Origin: a virus
Lineage: Duplodnaviria > Heunggongvirae > Uroviricota > Caudoviricetes
Length of the DNA stretch: 9,599 nucleotides
Virus record (IMG/VR): IMGVR_UViG_2713896901_000003
Coordinates: 1 to 9,599 of that record
Strand: one strand, 5' to 3'
Both the position numbers and the translations under genes were made by a program. This document shows positions 2,843 to 7,301 of this stretch, piece after piece (within the stretch, counting starts at the first letter, position 1; each line of letters starts with the position of its first letter). The notes below the pieces were generated by a model. It had not been told where the DNA came from. It did not search any database and was given only the letters and a program-made list of their open reading frames with translations.

Positions 2843-2919
2843 TGGATTGATCCAGTAATGACCTCAGAATTCCATCTGGATTTGTTCAGAACGCTCGGTC
2901 TTGCACACCGGGCGTTTTT
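2843..2919 (+). ncRNA. oop: oop-like antisense RNA overlapping the 3' end of cII
   Basis: The plus strand reads GATCCAGTAATGACCTCAGAATTCCATCTGGATTTGTTCAGAACGCTCGG...CCGGGCGTTTTTT. This is nearly the lambda oop sequence as I recall it. It ends in the hairpin GCTCGGT/ACCGGGC plus a T-run (2893-2920). The 5' end is approximate. Confidence 0.75.
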
Positions 2920-3163
2920 TCTTTGTGATTCCATCAAGCGCATACTTAAAAGCCCTGCTAATTGGACTGATGTCTGATGCCATTCCGAAAGCACACAAGA
3001 CCGAAGCAATAAACCGCCAGTCCGTTCTGCTTATCTTCGATTCATGACAGCCAATCATCTTTGCCAGACCACGCTGGGTAAGCGTTGACAGGTTGATGAG
3101 TAAATCTGTTTCTGCGCGATCAACGTCACGCTGTGATAGTTTGCTGTAACTTGTTTGTTCCAT
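2864..3163 (-). CDS. cII: CII transcriptional activator (lysogeny establishment)
   Basis: The C-terminus [19 protein letters not shown] matches the lambda CII C-terminus ([17 protein letters not shown]). An HTH-like segment, [17 protein letters not shown], is present. The position between nutR and the replication genes fits. The N-terminal two thirds differ from lambda. Confidence 0.9.
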
Positions 3164-3260: not shown

Positions 3261-3485
3261 TTATGCTGCCTGATTCGGTTTTGGAAACAGGTGTGGCAAA
3301 TCGGGGCGAATTTCGTAAGCCTTGATCTGCCCTCCAGTGGCGTTAACGATGGCGGTAACTTTCTCTGGAGAGACCAACCCGCCTTTCAGCCATTTGTGTA
3401 CTGCTGGCTGCGTTACACCACACTTGTCGGCAAGGCGCTTTTGGCTACCGACAATTTTCAAGGCTCGTTGAATTACTAAATTCAT
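3261..3485 (-). CDS. cro: Cro-like repressor (small HTH protein)
   Basis: It is the first gene of the pR transcript. It has an HTH-like segment, SQKRLADKCGVTQPAVHKWL. I prefer the start at MNLVIQ (ATG 3483-3485, AGAGG 7 nt upstream). The track start at 3506 lies only about 6 nt from the predicted pR transcription start and has no Shine-Dalgarno. Confidence 0.85.
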   Translation of the reverse strand: MNLVIQRALKIVGSQKRLADKCGVTQPAVHKWLKGGLVSPEKVTAIVNATGGQIKAYEIRPDLPHLFPKPNQAA

Positions 3486-3518
3486 GAGCATACCTCTTGT
3501 GGTCATTACTTATAACCA

Positions 3519-3547
3519 AAGATAACTCAAGTTATAAAAAATAGCAA
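3519..3547 (-). promoter_or_regulatory. pR promoter
   Basis: The minus strand reads TTGCTA (complement of 3542-3547), 17 nt, TATCTT (complement of 3519-3524). The -10 hexamer is the same as at pL, and the operator geometry is also the same. Confidence 0.7.
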
Positions 3548-3584
3548 TAACCTTTGTTATTTTACTTTGGATAACCGTAGTTAT
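3522..3584. promoter_or_regulatory. Tripartite right operator OR1-OR3 (ATAAC-N4-GTTAT palindromes)
   Basis: ATAACTCAAGTTAT lies at 3522-3535, ATAACCTTTGTTAT at 3547-3560 and ATAACCGTAGTTAT at 3571-3584. Centre-to-centre spacing is 25 and 24 bp. The sites overlap the pR -10/spacer, abut both -35 elements, and overlap the pRM spacer/-10. Confidence 0.8.
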
Positions 3585-3596: not shown

Positions 3597-4304
3597 ATGA
3601 AAACATTCGCAGAAAGACTAAATGCAGCCATGAGCTCAGCAGGTGTGTCGCAATCACAGCTTGCTGACATGGTTGGAATATCTCAGCCAGCCATACAGAA
3701 GATGTCATCCGGTAAAACAAACGGATCTCGCAAGATGGTTGAATTAGCCAATGCTTTAAAAGTACGCCCTGAATGGCTTAGCTCTGGTATTGGTGAAATG
3801 AGGGATGGTACACATGAAGAACCATCCAATGTCCGTGAATCATCTTTAAAAGCTGTGGTATGGGAAGATATTAAAAGAAACGATGACGAGTTTGTCGCGT
3901 TGCCTCTTCTTAACGTTTCGCTTTCAGCTGGAAACGGTAGCTGCGAGCTAGAGGAATCATCAGAGTTCTCTTTGGTTTTCAGAAAGTACTATCTGAAAAA
4001 GATGGGGGTATCTGAAAGATCAGCCAAGCTAGTTAGGGTTGTAGGGCAAAGCATGGAACCAACGCTTCACGACGGAGATGTTGTTGGTGTTAACACACAA
4101 GATACCACAATCAGAGATGGTAAAACCTACGCTATTTGCCAGTCTGATTTGTTACGAGTAAAAACATTAATCGCCACCCCTACATCGGTGATAATCAGAT
4201 CAATAAATCGCGAAGAGTACCCAGATGAAGTAATGGATAGAGATGAATTTCATGAAACCGTAAGGATTATTGGCAGAGTATTCTGGTCGTCTCATAGTTG
4301 GTAA
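3597..4304 (+). CDS. cI: CI prophage repressor (N-terminal HTH plus C-terminal LexA/S24-type autocleavage domain)
   Basis: HTH segment SQSQLADMVGISQPAIQKMSSG. A candidate Ala-Gly cleavage site lies in LSAGNGS. The catalytic Ser context is GQSMEPT and the Lys context is LRVKTL. It is divergent from cro across the operators. I prefer the ATG at 3597 over the TTG at 3567 in the track, because that TTG lies inside the operator/promoter region. Confidence 0.9.
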   Translation: MKTFAERLNAAMSSAGVSQSQLADMVGISQPAIQKMSSGKTNGSRKMVELANALKVRPEWLSSGIGEMRDGTHEEPSNVRESSLKAVVWEDIKRNDDEFVALPLLNVSLSAGNGSCELEESSEFSLVFRKYYLKKMGVSERSAKLVRVVGQSMEPTLHDGDVVGVNTQDTTIRDGKTYAICQSDLLRVKTLIATPTSVIIRSINREEYPDEVMDRDEFHETVRIIGRVFWSSHSW

Positions 4305-4344
4305 CCGATAATCAGAAGAAGACTTACGGAAGTGCGGAGGGATA

Positions 4345-4641
4345 ATGGAATTTCTGATAGTTTTTGTTGTTGTTTTGGTCATCATTCTTTTTGTTTTGCT
4401 AAGCATTAGCAAAAAGCTATCTCAAATGATTGAACATAGCTCTAATCGCGCAAAAGAAGAAGACCATCTAATTGATATAAAAGAGATTCTCTCTGATATA
4501 AAAATCACATTAGATGAAATAAAATACACAACAGATCTAATTGAACAGTATAAAATACCAACCCCAAACGAAAGAAAAGCAATAGATCAATATCGTATTG
4601 ACTTAGAAATCGACGAAATGCTAAGCAAAAGAAAAGACTAA
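4345..4641 (+). CDS. 98-aa single-pass membrane protein with an acidic helical C-terminal domain, in the rex slot; function unknown
   Basis: GGAGGG Shine-Dalgarno just upstream of the ATG. The N-terminal hydrophobic segment EFLIVFVVVLVIILFVLLSI is followed by KK. The rest is I/L/E/K/D-rich with a heptad-like pattern. It starts 41 nt after the cI stop on the same strand and is followed by a strong terminator. Confidence 0.8.
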   Translation: MEFLIVFVVVLVIILFVLLSISKKLSQMIEHSSNRAKEEDHLIDIKEILSDIKITLDEIKYTTDLIEQYKIPTPNERKAIDQYRIDLEIDEMLSKRKD

Positions 4642-4645
4642 AAAC

Positions 4646-4673
4646 ACCCGGCCTCAGCGCCGGGTTTTCTTTT
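4646..4673 (+). terminator. Intrinsic terminator ending the cI operon
   Basis: A perfect 7-bp GC-rich stem, ACCCGGC (4646-4652) / GCCGGGT (4659-4665), with a 6-nt loop, followed by TTTTCTTTT. Confidence 0.85.
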
Positions 4674-4838
4674 CCTGCCGTCCCCCACCCAATCAACCAT
4701 CCTCATCATAGACAAGCATCAAGCCAAAGGTAGCACTTTCACCCCGCACGCAAGCCCTCAAACACCAATCAATCAGCAACATTTACAAAAATAAAATACC
4801 TTTGTTATCCATCACTTATAACTTATTTACCATAAAAT

Positions 4839-4877
4839 ATAAACTAAGTTATTGACCACACCTATAACCTAAGTTAT
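4839..4877. promoter_or_regulatory. Left operators OL2 and OL1
   Basis: ATAAACTAAGTTAT at 4839-4852 has one mismatch to the OR consensus. ATAACCTAAGTTAT at 4864-4877 is perfect. Spacing is 25 bp. More degenerate candidates lie at 4795-4808 (AATACCTTTGTTAT) and about 4818-4831. Confidence 0.7.
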
Positions 4878-4881
4878 CTTT
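4853..4881 (+). promoter_or_regulatory. pL promoter
   Basis: TTGACC (4853-4858), 17 nt, TATCTT (4876-4881). OL1 lies in the spacer/-10 and OL2 abuts the -35, a mirror image of pR. Confidence 0.75.
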
Positions 4882-4926
4882 AAGCCATCAGCAGGACGCA
4901 GGAAGCCAAACGGAACAGATTGGCAG

Positions 4927-4964
4927 GCTCTTTAACATTGATGGAATGGGGATGATTCGTCCCC
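4927..4964 (+). promoter_or_regulatory. nutL (boxA plus boxB)
   Basis: GCTCTTTAACA (4927-4937) matches the boxA consensus. A 10-nt spacer follows, then GGGGATGATTCGTCCCC (4948-4964), which is identical to the nutR boxB. Confidence 0.8.
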
Positions 4965-5119: not shown

Positions 5120-5326
5120 GTGAAAGCAAGAGAGATTCGCAAACTCGAACGCGCTCGTAAGCACAAAGAGGCGACAGCAAAACGTAAAAATATTGACCGT
5201 GTTTCAATGGTGGTTTCGCTAGCAGGAGCGAATAGGAAGAAGGTTGAATGTGGTTCGTGCTGCCTGCCAAACGTAGCTCTTTACGCAGCAGGCTACCGGA
5301 AATCAAAACAACTGACAGCAAGATGA
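5120..5326 (+). CDS. N: N-type transcription antiterminator (P22 gp24-like C-terminal half)
   Basis: GTG start with GGAGG 6 nt upstream. The N-terminus is arginine/lysine-rich: KAREIRKLERARKHKEATAKRK. The C-terminal IDRV...SLAG...VALYAAGYRKSKQLTAR resembles P22 gp24 as I recall it (IDRVTKAISLAGTRQKEVEGGSVLLPGVALYAAGHRKSKQITAR). It is the first gene after pL/nutL. Confidence 0.85.
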   Translation: MKAREIRKLERARKHKEATAKRKNIDRVSMVVSLAGANRKKVECGSCCLPNVALYAAGYRKSKQLTAR

Positions 5327-5376
5327 CTTGTGTTGGTCGCCAGAAAATGAAATTAGGCAGCAAACCACTTATTTGA
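5326..5376 (+). pseudogene. Fossil 3' end of a lambda/phage-21-type N gene
   Basis: It translates as TCVGRQKMKLGSKPLI followed by a stop. Compare the lambda N C-terminus ITCSGRQKIKGKSIPLI and the phage 21 N C-terminus VTCVGRQKIKLGSKPLI, both as I recall them. It lies in the -1 frame relative to the intact N gene and begins at that gene's stop codon. Confidence 0.6.
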
Positions 5377-5387
5377 GAGGAATTAAT

Positions 5388-6011
5388 ATGTCATCAATCC
5401 GCTTAACTACGAGAATGAAAGAGGAAATCGCTCGTAACGCTTTAATTAAGTCTGGGGTTTTCACTGAACTTGAAGAAGTAACAAAGTTAAAGAACCAGCT
5501 TGCACTTGACGCCAGAGTTATTGCGTTTGGCGGAAAAAAGAAAACTGAGGAAGTGGACAAGCTGGCATCAAACTTAATGGCTATAAGTGAAGAACTTCAA
5601 AAGGTGGGATGTTCATTTTACTCATGCGATGTTCGTTCTACATCAATTTATCTGACTGTATCTGGCAGAAGGGTGGGATGGCATTCATATGGGAAAGACG
5701 GCAACGGTGAAGATATATTGCTTCCCACCCCAGAAAAAGATAAATGCATGTTTGATGCAGAACACGAAATAACAAAAAGGTTTGATGAAATCTGCGCATT
5801 GCAACAAAAACTTGAATCCAGGAAAAAGGATATCGAATCAAATGTATGGGCTGCTTTGAACTCAGTCACAACAGTTAAGCGACTTATTGAAGTTTGGCCT
5901 GAAAGCAAAGAATTGCTACCAAAAGAAGCAGATAAAGCAAGTGCAGCACTTCCTGCTTTACGGGTAGAAGATTTGAATAAGATGATTGGACTTCCTTCCG
6001 AGGCCGCATAA
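5388..6011 (+). CDS. Hypothetical 207-aa protein, first cargo gene after N
   Basis: ORF-track frame. I prefer the ATG at 5388 (GAGAGG 7 nt upstream) over the TTG at 5328, which would overlap the N fossil. The gene is AT-rich relative to the lambda-like block, and its own terminator follows. Confidence 0.85.
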   Translation: MSSIRLTTRMKEEIARNALIKSGVFTELEEVTKLKNQLALDARVIAFGGKKKTEEVDKLASNLMAISEELQKVGCSFYSCDVRSTSIYLTVSGRRVGWHSYGKDGNGEDILLPTPEKDKCMFDAEHEITKRFDEICALQQKLESRKKDIESNVWAALNSVTTVKRLIEVWPESKELLPKEADKASAALPALRVEDLNKMIGLPSEAA

Positions 6012-7110: not shown

Positions 7111-7136
7111 CGTTATGTATAAATAAGGAGCACACC

Positions 7137-7301
7137 ATGCAATATGCCATTGCAGGGTGGCCTGTTGCTGGCTGCCCTTCCGAATCTTTACTTGAACGAA
7201 TCACCCGTAAATTACGTGACGGATGGAAACGCCTTATCGACATACTTAATCAGCCAGGAGTCCCAAAAAATGGATCAAACACTTATGGCTATCCAGACTA
7301 A
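7137..7301 (+). CDS. cIII: CIII, inhibitor of FtsH (HflB) protease (54 aa, not in the ORF track)
   Basis: My translation is [54 protein letters not shown]. This is essentially lambda CIII as I recall it. AAGGAG lies upstream of the ATG. Confidence 0.9.
   Translation: MQYAIAGWPVAGCPSESLLERITRKLRDGWKRLIDILNQPGVPKNGSNTYGYPD

What the first reader, a model, noticed from the sequence alone, without database searches (positions are those of the whole stretch)
4345..4673. Small membrane protein carried on the repressor operon, in the slot lambda uses for rexAB
The sequence shows a 98-aa ORF starting 41 nt after the cI stop, on the same strand, with a GGAGGG Shine-Dalgarno. It is followed immediately by the strongest intrinsic terminator in the window, and it sits just upstream of OL/pL. 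I see no convincing promoter between cI and this gene. It is therefore predicted to be co-transcribed with cI from pRM, which is the one unit kept on in a lysogen. In lambda this exact slot holds rexA/rexB, and in other lambdoid phages it holds unrelated exclusion or defence cargo. The protein has one N-terminal transmembrane helix (EFLIVFVVVLVIILFVLLSI) followed by KK, which suggests the C-terminus is cytoplasmic. The remaining ~70 aa are acidic and I/L-rich with a heptad-like pattern (IDIKEILSDIKITLDEIKYTTDLIEQY). I recognise no enzymatic motif and no similarity to RexA/B, SieA/B or other exclusion proteins I can recall. My inference is that this is a lysogen-expressed superinfection-exclusion, DNA-entry-blocking or abortive-infection factor of an uncharacterised type.
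Basis: partly seen in the sequence, partly recalled or inferred. Interest (0 to 1): 0.7.

Follow-up and report, generated by a model that had tools for sequence, protein, structure and literature searches.

The report
Small membrane protein riding the repressor operon
A real, conserved 98-residue inner-membrane protein gene sits as a promoterless "ribosome site–gene–terminator" cassette right after the prophage repressor gene, in the slot where phage lambda keeps rexAB; it is most likely lysogen-expressed anti-phage cargo, but its function has not been tested.

Summary
Window 4345-4641 (+) encodes a 98-aa protein 40 nt after the cI stop. It has a GGAGGG ribosome site, and a hairpin/T-run terminator follows it, about 130 nt before OL/pL.

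- The gene is under purifying selection (dN/dS 0.14-0.19).
- It belongs to a very small family without Pfam, NCBIfam, PADLOC or structural relatives. Only PHROG 18389 (unknown function) matches.
- In 11 lineages it always lies 0-54 nt after an S24-type cI and before N, although those cI proteins are often unalignable.
- Phages with a different cI share only window 4335-4668 (ribosome site, ORF, terminator).
- Phages with the same cI (99% nt) can carry other cargo instead (DUF3024, which matches PADLOC candidate PDC-S43). The swap boundaries are exactly 4306 and 4755.

So this is exchangeable, promoterless cargo that depends on repressor transcription. The predicted topology is N-out/C-in: a two-residue periplasmic tail and an acidic, conserved cytoplasmic helical hairpin. 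That argues against a periplasmic entry plug and for action at the cytoplasmic face of the membrane.

An exclusion or defence role is the best inference (about 0.5), not a demonstrated fact. A Hex-like lysogeny stabiliser and a host-physiology role remain open. Verdict: a new member of a known kind, of moderate interest.

The parts
3597..4304 (+). cI-type repressor (HTH + S24 self-cleaving domain), first gene of the presumed pRM transcript
   Evidence: Pfam Peptidase_S24 3.9e-17 and HTH_3 8e-07. PHROG 4 transcriptional repressor 8e-54. RefSeq relatives annotate the 235-aa form.
3522..3584 (.). OR: three perfect ATAAC-N4-GTTAT operators between cro (-) and cI (+). pRM must lie here.
   Evidence: Pattern search. 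cro at 3261-3506 (-).
4307..4754 (+). Swappable slot: the segment replaced by other cargo in prophages with the same cI
   Evidence: blastn against L045 (cI 99% nt identical): homology ends at 4306 and resumes at 4755. L045, L043 and L002 carry DUF3024/PDC-S43 plus a 173-177-aa ORF instead.
4335..4668 (+). Portable cassette: ribosome site + ORF + terminator. This is the only DNA shared with Citrobacter-type prophages that have an unrelated cI.
   Evidence: blastn against L004 and L041: 80-81% identity over 4335-4668 only. Their cI proteins are 22% identical to the window cI.
4336..4341 (+). Shine-Dalgarno GGAGGG, 3 nt before the ATG
   Evidence: Sequence. Homologues have GGAG/GAGG at the equivalent place.
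4345..4641 (+). 98-aa protein gene (family = PHROG 18389, function unknown)
   Evidence: ORF. PHROG 1.8e-61 over the full length. dN/dS 0.14-0.19. 99 of 5426 complete E. coli genomes carry it.
4351..4407 (+). Codons for the single transmembrane helix (residues 3-21, FLIVFVVVLVIILFVLLSI), followed by S-K-K
   Evidence: Mean Kyte-Doolittle hydropathy 3.67. AF2 helix 2-38, pLDDT about 90.
4474..4626 (+). Codons for the conserved acidic cytoplasmic helix-turn-helix hairpin (residues 44-94; motif IKY[TV]TDxIExYKLPxxxERxxIDQxRxDxEI; invariant Y69, P72, D81, E88)
   Evidence: Alignments A1 and A2. AF2 helices 45-68 and 74-96. Net charge -4.
4646..4673 (+). Intrinsic terminator (stem 4646-4665 plus T-run), equivalent to lambda t_imm. 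It is preceded by an A-run, so it is potentially bidirectional.
   Evidence: The stem is conserved and the loop differs in L004, L041, L040 and L055. Nine of 11 lineages have a hairpin with a T-run after the stop, one has a hairpin only and one has none.
4795..4880 (+). OL operators (4795, 4839, 4864) and the pL-like promoter TTGACC-17-TATCTT (4852-4880)
5120..5326 (+). N-type antiterminator, first gene of the pL operon. It marks the far side of the slot.
   Evidence: Pfam N_peptide 2.7e-16.

Best explanation
The 98-aa ORF is a genuine gene. It is carried as a promoterless cassette (ribosome site, ORF, terminator) inserted between the cI stop codon and OL.

Expression (inferred). It is transcribed as the second cistron of the repressor message: from pRM in the lysogen, and from pRE during establishment.

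Product (inferred). The protein inserts into the inner membrane through one N-terminal helix. Only about 2 residues face the periplasm. An acidic, about 75-residue helical hairpin with a conserved Y-T-T-D...Y-K-L-P...E-R..I-D motif faces the cytoplasm.

Function (inferred). The most likely role is to protect the lysogen against other phages. The family-wide conserved, specific part is cytoplasmic. I therefore favour a mechanism at the inner face of the membrane: binding or sequestering a conserved host or phage component during or just after genome entry, or sensing infection and perturbing the membrane through oligomerised TM helices. I consider a periplasmic plug of the DNA conduit less likely.

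Shown here: gene reality, cassette boundaries, conserved position, absence of a conserved promoter, the terminator, and the family-wide topology signals. Inferred: co-transcription, membrane topology and anti-phage function.
For: Real gene:
- dN/dS is 0.17-0.19 against homologues 74-76% identical and 0.14 between two Citrobacter-type copies.
- The C-terminal half is nearly invariant while the linker varies.

Cassette and dependence on cI transcription:
- Only 4335-4668 is shared with prophages whose cI is 22% identical.
- In 11 lineages (family identity 26-96%) the gene lies 0-54 nt after an S24 cI on the same strand, within cII-cro-cI-X-N synteny.
- In two lineages the gap is 0-1 nt, which suggests translational coupling.
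- Eight of 11 have no sigma-70-like hexamer pair within 200 nt upstream. The three weak ones are at different positions.
- Nine of 11 have a hairpin with a T-run after the stop, and one more has a hairpin without one.

Cargo rather than core function:
- The same cI (92-99% nt) occurs with a different cassette. That cassette is DUF3024, which matches PADLOC defence candidate PDC-S43 at 2.2e-41.
- The X tree is decoupled from the cI tree.

The slot is known for lysogen-expressed exclusion and defence genes: lambda rexAB, 933W stk and 434 hex (PMC3564112), and BTP1 bstA, in a region described as a 'hotspot of mosaic diversity' (PMC8585504).

Topology: in all 18 family members the N-tail is 0-8 residues and never basic, K/R follows the TM helix, and the C-domain is acidic with pI 4.2-5.4. 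By the positive-inside rule this gives N-out/C-in.

Precedent: small inner-membrane prophage proteins such as HK97 gp15 and P22 SieA exclude phages (PMC3594210; PMC10883804).
Against: - There is no phenotype, transcript or protein data.
- There is no homology to any known exclusion or defence protein: PADLOC, Pfam and NCBIfam are negative, and hhalign against RexA, RexB and gp15 gives probabilities below 9%.
- Guilt by location is weak evidence. The same slot also holds 434 Hex, whose documented activity is blocking repressor cleavage.
- PDC-S43 is itself only a candidate.
- A cytoplasm-facing acidic hairpin has no precedent among characterised entry blockers.
- The four most divergent homologues (Pelagicoccus and three metagenomic contigs) are not next to a recognisable cI, so the family is not intrinsically tied to repressors or, demonstrably, to phages.
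- A weak promoter-like site exists at 4270-4298 in this particular phage.
Confidence: 0.5

Rival explanations
1. Hex-like lysogeny stabiliser. The protein acts on the switch itself, for example by hindering RecA-stimulated cI self-cleavage or by tethering a switch component at the membrane. This would lower spontaneous induction. Any exclusion would be secondary.
For: 434 Hex is encoded on the pRM transcript directly after cI and reduces spontaneous induction 30-fold by blocking RecA-mediated cleavage (PMC3564112). X is found after an S24 self-cleaving repressor in all 11 lambdoid lineages, often with 0-15 nt gaps. That pattern would suit a stoichiometric partner of cI.
Against: - X is uncoupled from repressor type. 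X proteins 76% identical follow cI proteins that are 22% identical, and the closest cI relatives carry more distant X proteins.
- The same cI works without X in other prophages.
- Hex is specific to 434 and P22 repressors and is not described as membrane-bound.
- Membrane anchoring has no obvious role in blocking cleavage of a DNA-bound repressor.
Confidence: 0.12
2. Lysogenic-conversion factor for host physiology, unrelated to phages. A small membrane protein would modulate an inner-membrane process (a transporter, stress response, protease or envelope homeostasis) and so improve lysogen fitness.
For: Many small single-pass inner-membrane proteins of E. coli regulate transporters or stress responses (general knowledge; alluded to in PMC3594210). 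The conserved cytoplasmic motif across Escherichia, Citrobacter and Yersinia hosts fits a conserved host target. The gene is enriched in STEC-type genomes and in one Stx1a phage. Distant homologues occur outside recognisable prophage switch regions.
Against: There is no link to any characterised host pathway and no co-occurring host gene. The alternative occupant of the same slot is a defence candidate. The known occupants of this slot are overwhelmingly phage-directed.
Confidence: 0.2
3. Establishment or lytic-decision helper. The gene is expressed mainly from pRE together with cI right after infection. It could, for example, modulate the membrane protease FtsH/HflKC in the way cIII does, biasing the phage's own infection towards lysogeny.
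For: The position downstream of cI means pRE transcripts would include it. The protein is membrane-anchored and faces the cytoplasm with amphipathic helices. FtsH is a membrane protease with a cytoplasmic active site, and cIII acts through an amphipathic helix (established knowledge).
Against: The phage already encodes a lambda-type cIII with its thermoregulator. There is no sequence similarity to cIII. Presence or absence of X among phages with the same cI and cII argues against a core switch role.
Confidence: 0.08
4. Not a functional gene: a chance ORF, or merely spacer DNA that carries the operon terminator.
For: The ORF is short, has no domain hit and is annotated only as hypothetical.
Against: dN/dS is 0.14-0.19, with about 30 synonymous and 29 non-synonymous differences over about 61 synonymous and 233 non-synonymous sites. 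Length and architecture are conserved down to 26% identity. Conserved ribosome sites are present.
Confidence: 0.02

Closest known systems
Lambda rexA-rexB (pRM-operon abortive-infection/exclusion genes)
   Same: Identical genomic slot and logic: between the cI stop and OL, same strand as cI, ended by a terminator before OL, and expressed with the repressor in lysogens. One partner, RexB, is an inner-membrane protein.
   Different: No sequence relationship (hhalign probability 1.5% and 0.5%; no Pfam or PADLOC Rex hit). Rex is a two-gene system with a 279-aa soluble sensor and a multi-pass 144-aa membrane protein. Here there is one 98-aa single-pass protein.
HK97 gp15 (moron-encoded superinfection-exclusion protein, YebO-like)
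   Same: A small prophage-expressed protein that inserts into the inner membrane and blocks genome entry by other phages (PMC3594210). It is carried as an ORF with its own terminator.
   Different: No homology (hhalign probability 8.5%). gp15 is 62 aa. It sits in the tail operon and is a classical moron with its own promoter. X has no conserved promoter and sits behind cI.
Phage 434 Hex
   Same: Second cistron of the pRM transcript directly after cI. It is non-essential, and it was first detected as heterologous exclusion (PMC3564112).
   Different: Hex is a 158-aa ORF overlapping the cI 3' end and is not described as membrane-bound. Its shown activity is inhibition of RecA-stimulated cleavage of 434 and P22 repressors. 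X pairs with many unrelated cI types.
BstA of Salmonella prophage BTP1
   Same: It lies downstream of cI and presumably shares its promoter. That architecture is conserved across diverse prophages, it has its own Rho-independent terminator, and it is highly expressed in lysogeny (PMC8585504).
   Different: BstA is a large soluble abortive-infection protein that localises to phage replication sites and has a DNA self-immunity element (aba). There is no homology or shared architecture with X.
P22 SieA
   Same: A prophage-expressed inner-membrane protein that is sufficient on its own to block DNA delivery by related phages (PMC10883804).
   Different: SieA is 162-164 aa with three predicted TM helices and its own promoter, and it lies elsewhere in the genome. 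It acts on the periplasmic and membrane ejection-protein conduit. X has one TM helix and essentially no periplasmic part.

Membership tests
Accessory cargo of the lambdoid cI-N (rexAB) slot, expressed on the repressor transcript | Located between the cI stop codon and OL, on the cI strand | tested here: met
   cI 3597-4304, ORF 4345-4641, OL operators 4795-4877, N 5120-5326. The order matches the lambda record.
Accessory cargo of the lambdoid cI-N (rexAB) slot, expressed on the repressor transcript | Variable content among phages of the same immunity type (hotspot behaviour) | tested here: met
   The same cI (92-99% nt) occurs with a DUF3024/PDC-S43 cassette instead. Breakpoints are at 4306 and 4755. 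cI at 90% identity or more is in 113 genomes and the ORF in 99.
Accessory cargo of the lambdoid cI-N (rexAB) slot, expressed on the repressor transcript | Co-transcription with cI from pRM; no promoter of its own | tested here: inconclusive
   Sequence evidence only. The shared cassette starts 10 nt before the ATG. Gaps are 0-54 nt. Eight of 11 lineages have no promoter-like site within 200 nt, and the rest are weak and non-conserved. One weak 9/12 site lies at 4270-4298 in this window. Transcripts cannot be tested with these tools.
Accessory cargo of the lambdoid cI-N (rexAB) slot, expressed on the repressor transcript | Operon terminated before OL | tested here: met
   Hairpin 4646-4665 plus T-run. 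Nine of 11 lineages show a hairpin with a T-run.
RexA/RexB | Sequence homology to RexA or RexB | tested here: not met
   hhalign probability 0.5% and 1.5%. No Pfam or PADLOC hit.
RexA/RexB | Two-component system (soluble sensor plus multi-pass membrane effector) | tested here: not met
   A single 98-aa gene with one TM helix fills the slot. No second ORF lies between 4305 and 4790 on the + strand.
HK97 gp15 / YebO family | Sequence homology to gp15/YebO | tested here: not met
   hhalign probability 8.5%. No YebO hit in Pfam at E<=1.
Moron (as described in PMC3594210: inserted unit with its own promoter and terminator) | Own promoter | tested here: not met
   Only 10 nt of conserved 5' flank. 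No conserved promoter-like site.
Moron (as described in PMC3594210: inserted unit with its own promoter and terminator) | Own terminator and evidence of horizontal insertion | tested here: met
   The terminator travels with the ORF. The cassette is found behind unrelated cI genes.
P22 SieA-type entry blockers | Multi-pass (3 TM) inner-membrane protein of about 160 aa | tested here: not met
   One hydrophobic segment, 94-126 aa across the whole family. SieA features are from PMC10883804.
434 Hex | Inhibits RecA-stimulated cleavage of its cognate repressor | not testable with these tools
   This is a biochemical property. The only indirect evidence is that X is decoupled from cI type.
PHROG 18389 (unknown function) | Full-length profile match | tested here: met
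   E = 1.8e-61, residues 1-98 against profile positions 1-98 of 98.
Any catalogued anti-phage defence protein (PADLOC-DB v2) | Significant profile match | tested here: not met
   Only ZorB at E = 0.013 over the TM segment.

The most novel reading that the evidence does not exclude
X founds a new family of single-gene, membrane-tethered, cytoplasm-facing anti-phage proteins. The family spreads as promoterless cassettes that use the repressor transcript of many different immunity types. Recognition would occur on the inner face of the membrane through the conserved YTTD...YKLP...ER..ID hairpin, a mode not described for known entry blockers. A less likely alternative: it is a general membrane-anchored modulator of prophage induction shared by unrelated repressors.
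Probability: 0.4. Interest if true: 0.6.

Novelty: new member of a known kind. Interest (0 to 1): 0.42.

Why it matters
The cI-to-N interval of lambdoid prophages is one of the few places where a gene is expressed in every lysogenic cell. It has already yielded RexAB, Stk, Hex and BstA. This cassette is a clean, minimal example of how cargo exploits that transcript. It consists of a ribosome site, a 98-codon gene and a terminator. It has moved between at least 11 immunity types in Escherichia, Citrobacter, Yersinia and unidentified hosts, and it occurs in about 2% of complete E. coli genomes, including many STEC strains and one Stx1a phage. If it is a defence gene, it would add a very small, easily tested family with an unusual cytoplasm-facing architecture. 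If it modulates induction, it would bear on Stx-prophage stability. Either way it is a one-gene, one-deletion experiment.

Tried and rejected
- Pfam, NCBIfam and PADLOC scans gave only sub-threshold hits over the TM or coiled-coil stretch (DUF5385, MscL, ZorB). I rejected these as compositional.
- A weak PHROG hit to the phi29 p16.7-like replication protein (E 0.095) is an architectural analogue only (TM plus coiled coil). The acidic C-domain argues against DNA binding.
- A profile search of PDB sequences returned only designed coiled coils.
- A genome-contig scan with the family alignment found nothing, because the species representatives lack the prophage. The first attempt failed for lack of conserved columns.
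- tblastn of the full protein and of a C-domain consensus against 50,697 phage genomes found a single record, Stx1a_10051. In plasmids the only hit was a 1.4-Mb record.
- Literature searches for the RefSeq accession and for DUF3024 gave nothing useful. The HK97 gp15 primary paper is not held.
- The overlapping minus-strand ORFs (4200-4412 and 4505-4696) were considered and rejected. The substitution pattern fits the + frame, and homologues align from M1 to the stop.

Full report
**1. What is in the window**

The window is the early region of a lambdoid prophage, inverted relative to the lambda map.
- Minus strand: a DnaB-type helicase (367-1818), an O-type initiator (1793-2692), cII (2864-3163) and cro (3261-3506).
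- Plus strand: cI, the ORF in question, an N-type antiterminator (5120-5326), an Nmad5-family gene, cIII, bet and exo.
- Three perfect ATAAC-N4-GTTAT palindromes lie between cro and cI (3522, 3547, 3571). Three related ones (4795, 4839, 4864) overlap a TTGACC-17-TATCTT promoter upstream of N. These are OR and OL/pL.
- The lambda reference record shows the same order, cI-rexA-rexB-OL-N. The ORF therefore does occupy the rexAB slot.

**2. The observation**

All stated features are present.
- The ORF is 4345-4641, 98 aa.
- The gap after the cI stop codon (4302-4304) is 40 nt, and GGAGGG lies at 4336-4341.
- A 7-bp, 6-G-C hairpin at 4646-4665 is followed by TTTCTTTT.

Two details need softening.
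- The terminator is among the best in the window but not uniquely the strongest.
- A weak promoter-like pair (9 of 12 matches) lies at 4270-4298, inside cI. Such pairs occur at chance frequency in this region (4 found, 4.3 expected).

**3. It is a real gene in a tiny, uncharacterised family**

Annotation and abundance:
- Pfam, NCBIfam and PADLOC give nothing significant. PHROG 18389 (unknown function) matches over its full length.
- A word-indexed search of 5.8 billion proteins found 11 clusters, in E. coli and Citrobacter.
- An exhaustive profile search of 1.84 billion representatives found only 14, all 94-126 aa. One is from Yersinia frederiksenii and one from Pelagicoccus.

Shared features of family members:
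- an N-terminal hydrophobic helix;
- a variable linker;
- a conserved C-terminal motif, IKY(T/V)TDxIExYKLPxxxERxxIDQxRxDxEI, with Y69, P72, D81 and E88 invariant.

Selection: Nei-Gojobori dN/dS is 0.17-0.19 against copies 74-76% identical and 0.14 between two Citrobacter-type copies. The reading frame is under purifying selection.

Structure:
- AlphaFold2 predicts three helices (2-38, 45-68, 74-96) with mean pLDDT 81.
- Foldseek against the PDB and BFVD found nothing.

**4. Comparative anatomy: a promoterless, portable cassette**

Same cargo, different repressors:
- Against Citrobacter-type prophages, nucleotide homology covers window 4335-4668 only. That is the ribosome site, the ORF and the terminator, at 80-81% identity.
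- The cI proteins upstream are 22% identical.

Same repressor, different cargo:
- The intervening segment there carries a DUF3024 protein, which matches PADLOC candidate PDC-S43 (E = 2.2e-41), plus a 173-aa ORF.
- The same alternative occurs in strain 2014C-3061 and in phage SH2026Stx1.
- Among 5426 complete E. coli genomes, cI at 90% identity or more is in 113 and the ORF in 99.

Position across the family:
- I recovered the genomic context of 15 family lineages.
- In 11 of them the gene lies directly after an S24-type cI on the same strand, within cII-cro-cI-X-N synteny. The gaps are 40, 15, 15, 44, 12, 14, 1, 23, 0, 54 and 24 nt.
- Those cI proteins fall into two unalignable clades and several specificities. 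The X tree does not follow the cI tree.
- Eight of 11 have no sigma-70-like hexamer pair in the 200 nt upstream. The three weak ones are at different positions.
- Nine of 11 have a hairpin with a T-run just after the stop codon, one more (L054) has a hairpin without a T-run, and one (L037) has none. In close relatives the stem is conserved while the loop differs.
- The four most divergent members (34% identity or less) are not next to a recognisable repressor.

The simplest reading is that X cannot express itself. It persists only where a host transcript reads into it, and the repressor transcript is the one that is on in every lysogen.

**5. Topology and what it implies**

In all 18 aligned members:
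- the segment before the helix is 0-8 residues and never positively charged;
- Lys or Arg follows the helix;
- the remainder is acidic (net charge -2 to -9, pI 4.2-5.4).

By the positive-inside rule (established knowledge) this predicts N-out/C-in. In the window protein only Met-Glu would be periplasmic. The TM sequence is conserved in character only, while the cytoplasmic hairpin is conserved in sequence. Specific recognition should therefore happen on the cytoplasmic side. An acidic domain is unlikely to bind DNA. I45, I52, I59 and I66 form a heptad stripe, which is compatible with oligomerisation.

**6. Mechanism**

Best estimate (about 0.5): lysogen-expressed protection against other phages, acting at the inner face of the membrane. 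The protein could bind a conserved host or phage component during or just after genome entry. Alternatively it could sense infection and disturb the membrane.

This rests on three things:
- the history of the slot: rexAB, stk and hex, and bstA in a region described as a 'hotspot of mosaic diversity';
- the defence-candidate status of the alternative cargo;
- the precedent of small inner-membrane exclusion proteins, gp15 and SieA.

It is an inference; no phenotype exists.

Rivals:
- A Hex-like stabiliser of lysogeny (0.12). It is weakened by the decoupling of X from cI type and by cI working without X.
- A host-physiology conversion factor (0.2).
- An establishment helper expressed from pRE (0.08).
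- A non-functional ORF (0.02), refuted.

**7. Comparison with known systems**

- X works like rexAB, hex and bstA in genomic logic, and like gp15 and SieA in being a small inner-membrane prophage protein.
- It is a member of none of them. hhalign probabilities are 0.5-8.5% against RexA, RexB and gp15.
- The architecture differs from SieA, which has 3 TM helices and about 160 aa.
- It fails the 'own promoter' criterion of a classical moron.
- It is a member of PHROG 18389.

**8. Verdict**

The finding is real and the operon and slot reading is well supported. The functional label remains a hypothesis. I rate it a new member of a known kind: repressor-operon cargo in the cI-N hotspot, built on a protein family with no characterised relative. 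Interest is moderate. Specialists expect unknown cargo at this site. However, three things make it a good, cheap experimental target: the strict promoterless-cassette behaviour across 11 immunity types, the cytoplasm-facing architecture, and the presence in about 2% of complete E. coli genomes (many of them STEC).

Noticed in passing
L045 3246-4260; L043 3246-4310; L002 2604-3668: In prophages with the same cI, the slot holds a DUF3024 protein (113 aa) instead, followed by a 173-177-aa hypothetical. The DUF3024 protein matches PADLOC phage-defence candidate PDC-S43 at 2.2e-41. This includes the Stx1 phage SH2026Stx1. Neither protein appears to be characterised.
   Followed up: partly
window 4669-4754; L004 6324-6530 (-); L041 5324-5548 (-); L040 4733-4960 (-): The C-rich, ORF-free spacer between the terminator and OL belongs to the swapped segment but is not shared with the Citrobacter-type cassettes. 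Those cassettes instead carry a convergent 68-75-aa ORF on the opposite strand, just after the potentially bidirectional terminator. That ORF has no Pfam or PADLOC hit.
   Followed up: partly
window 5120-5326 (N) and 4926-4964: The N homologue is only 68 aa and matches only the C-terminal part of the Pfam N_peptide model. RefSeq marks the equivalent gene in relatives as an incomplete pseudogene. Its N-terminus (KAREIRKLERARKHKE) nevertheless looks like an arginine-rich motif. A boxA-like GGCTCTTTAACA (4926-4937) and a possible boxB hairpin (4948-4964) lie upstream.
   Followed up: no
window 5328-6011: An Nmad5 (nucleotide-modification-associated domain 5) family protein (Pfam 3e-70) is encoded immediately after N, with start and stop codons nearly abutting. 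This is an unusual first cargo of the pL operon.
   Followed up: no
window 7124-7182 and 7137-7301: Rfam finds the lambda cIII thermoregulator RNA element (88.5 bits) overlapping the start of a lambda-type cIII ORF (54 aa).
   Followed up: no
L039 (Pelagicoccus sp.), L049, L050, L051: The most divergent family members (34% identity or less) are not next to an S24 repressor. One follows a SHOCT-domain protein. One is in a Verrucomicrobia genome, after a membrane protein of unknown function. The family may therefore have a life outside lambdoid switch regions.
   Followed up: partly
window 4270-4298 (+): A weak sigma-70-like pair, TTGGCA-17-CATAGT (9 of 12), lies inside the 3' end of cI, 47 nt before the ORF start. 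It could give some cI-independent expression in this particular phage. It is not conserved in other lineages.
   Followed up: partly
L001 (Stx1a-converting phage Stx1a_10051) 1501-3215: This is the only record among 50,697 deposited phage genomes that carries the gene. It is an unannotated Stx1a-converting phage with the same cro-cI-X-OL module at 98% identity. Downstream of OL its pL region differs from the window.
   Followed up: partly
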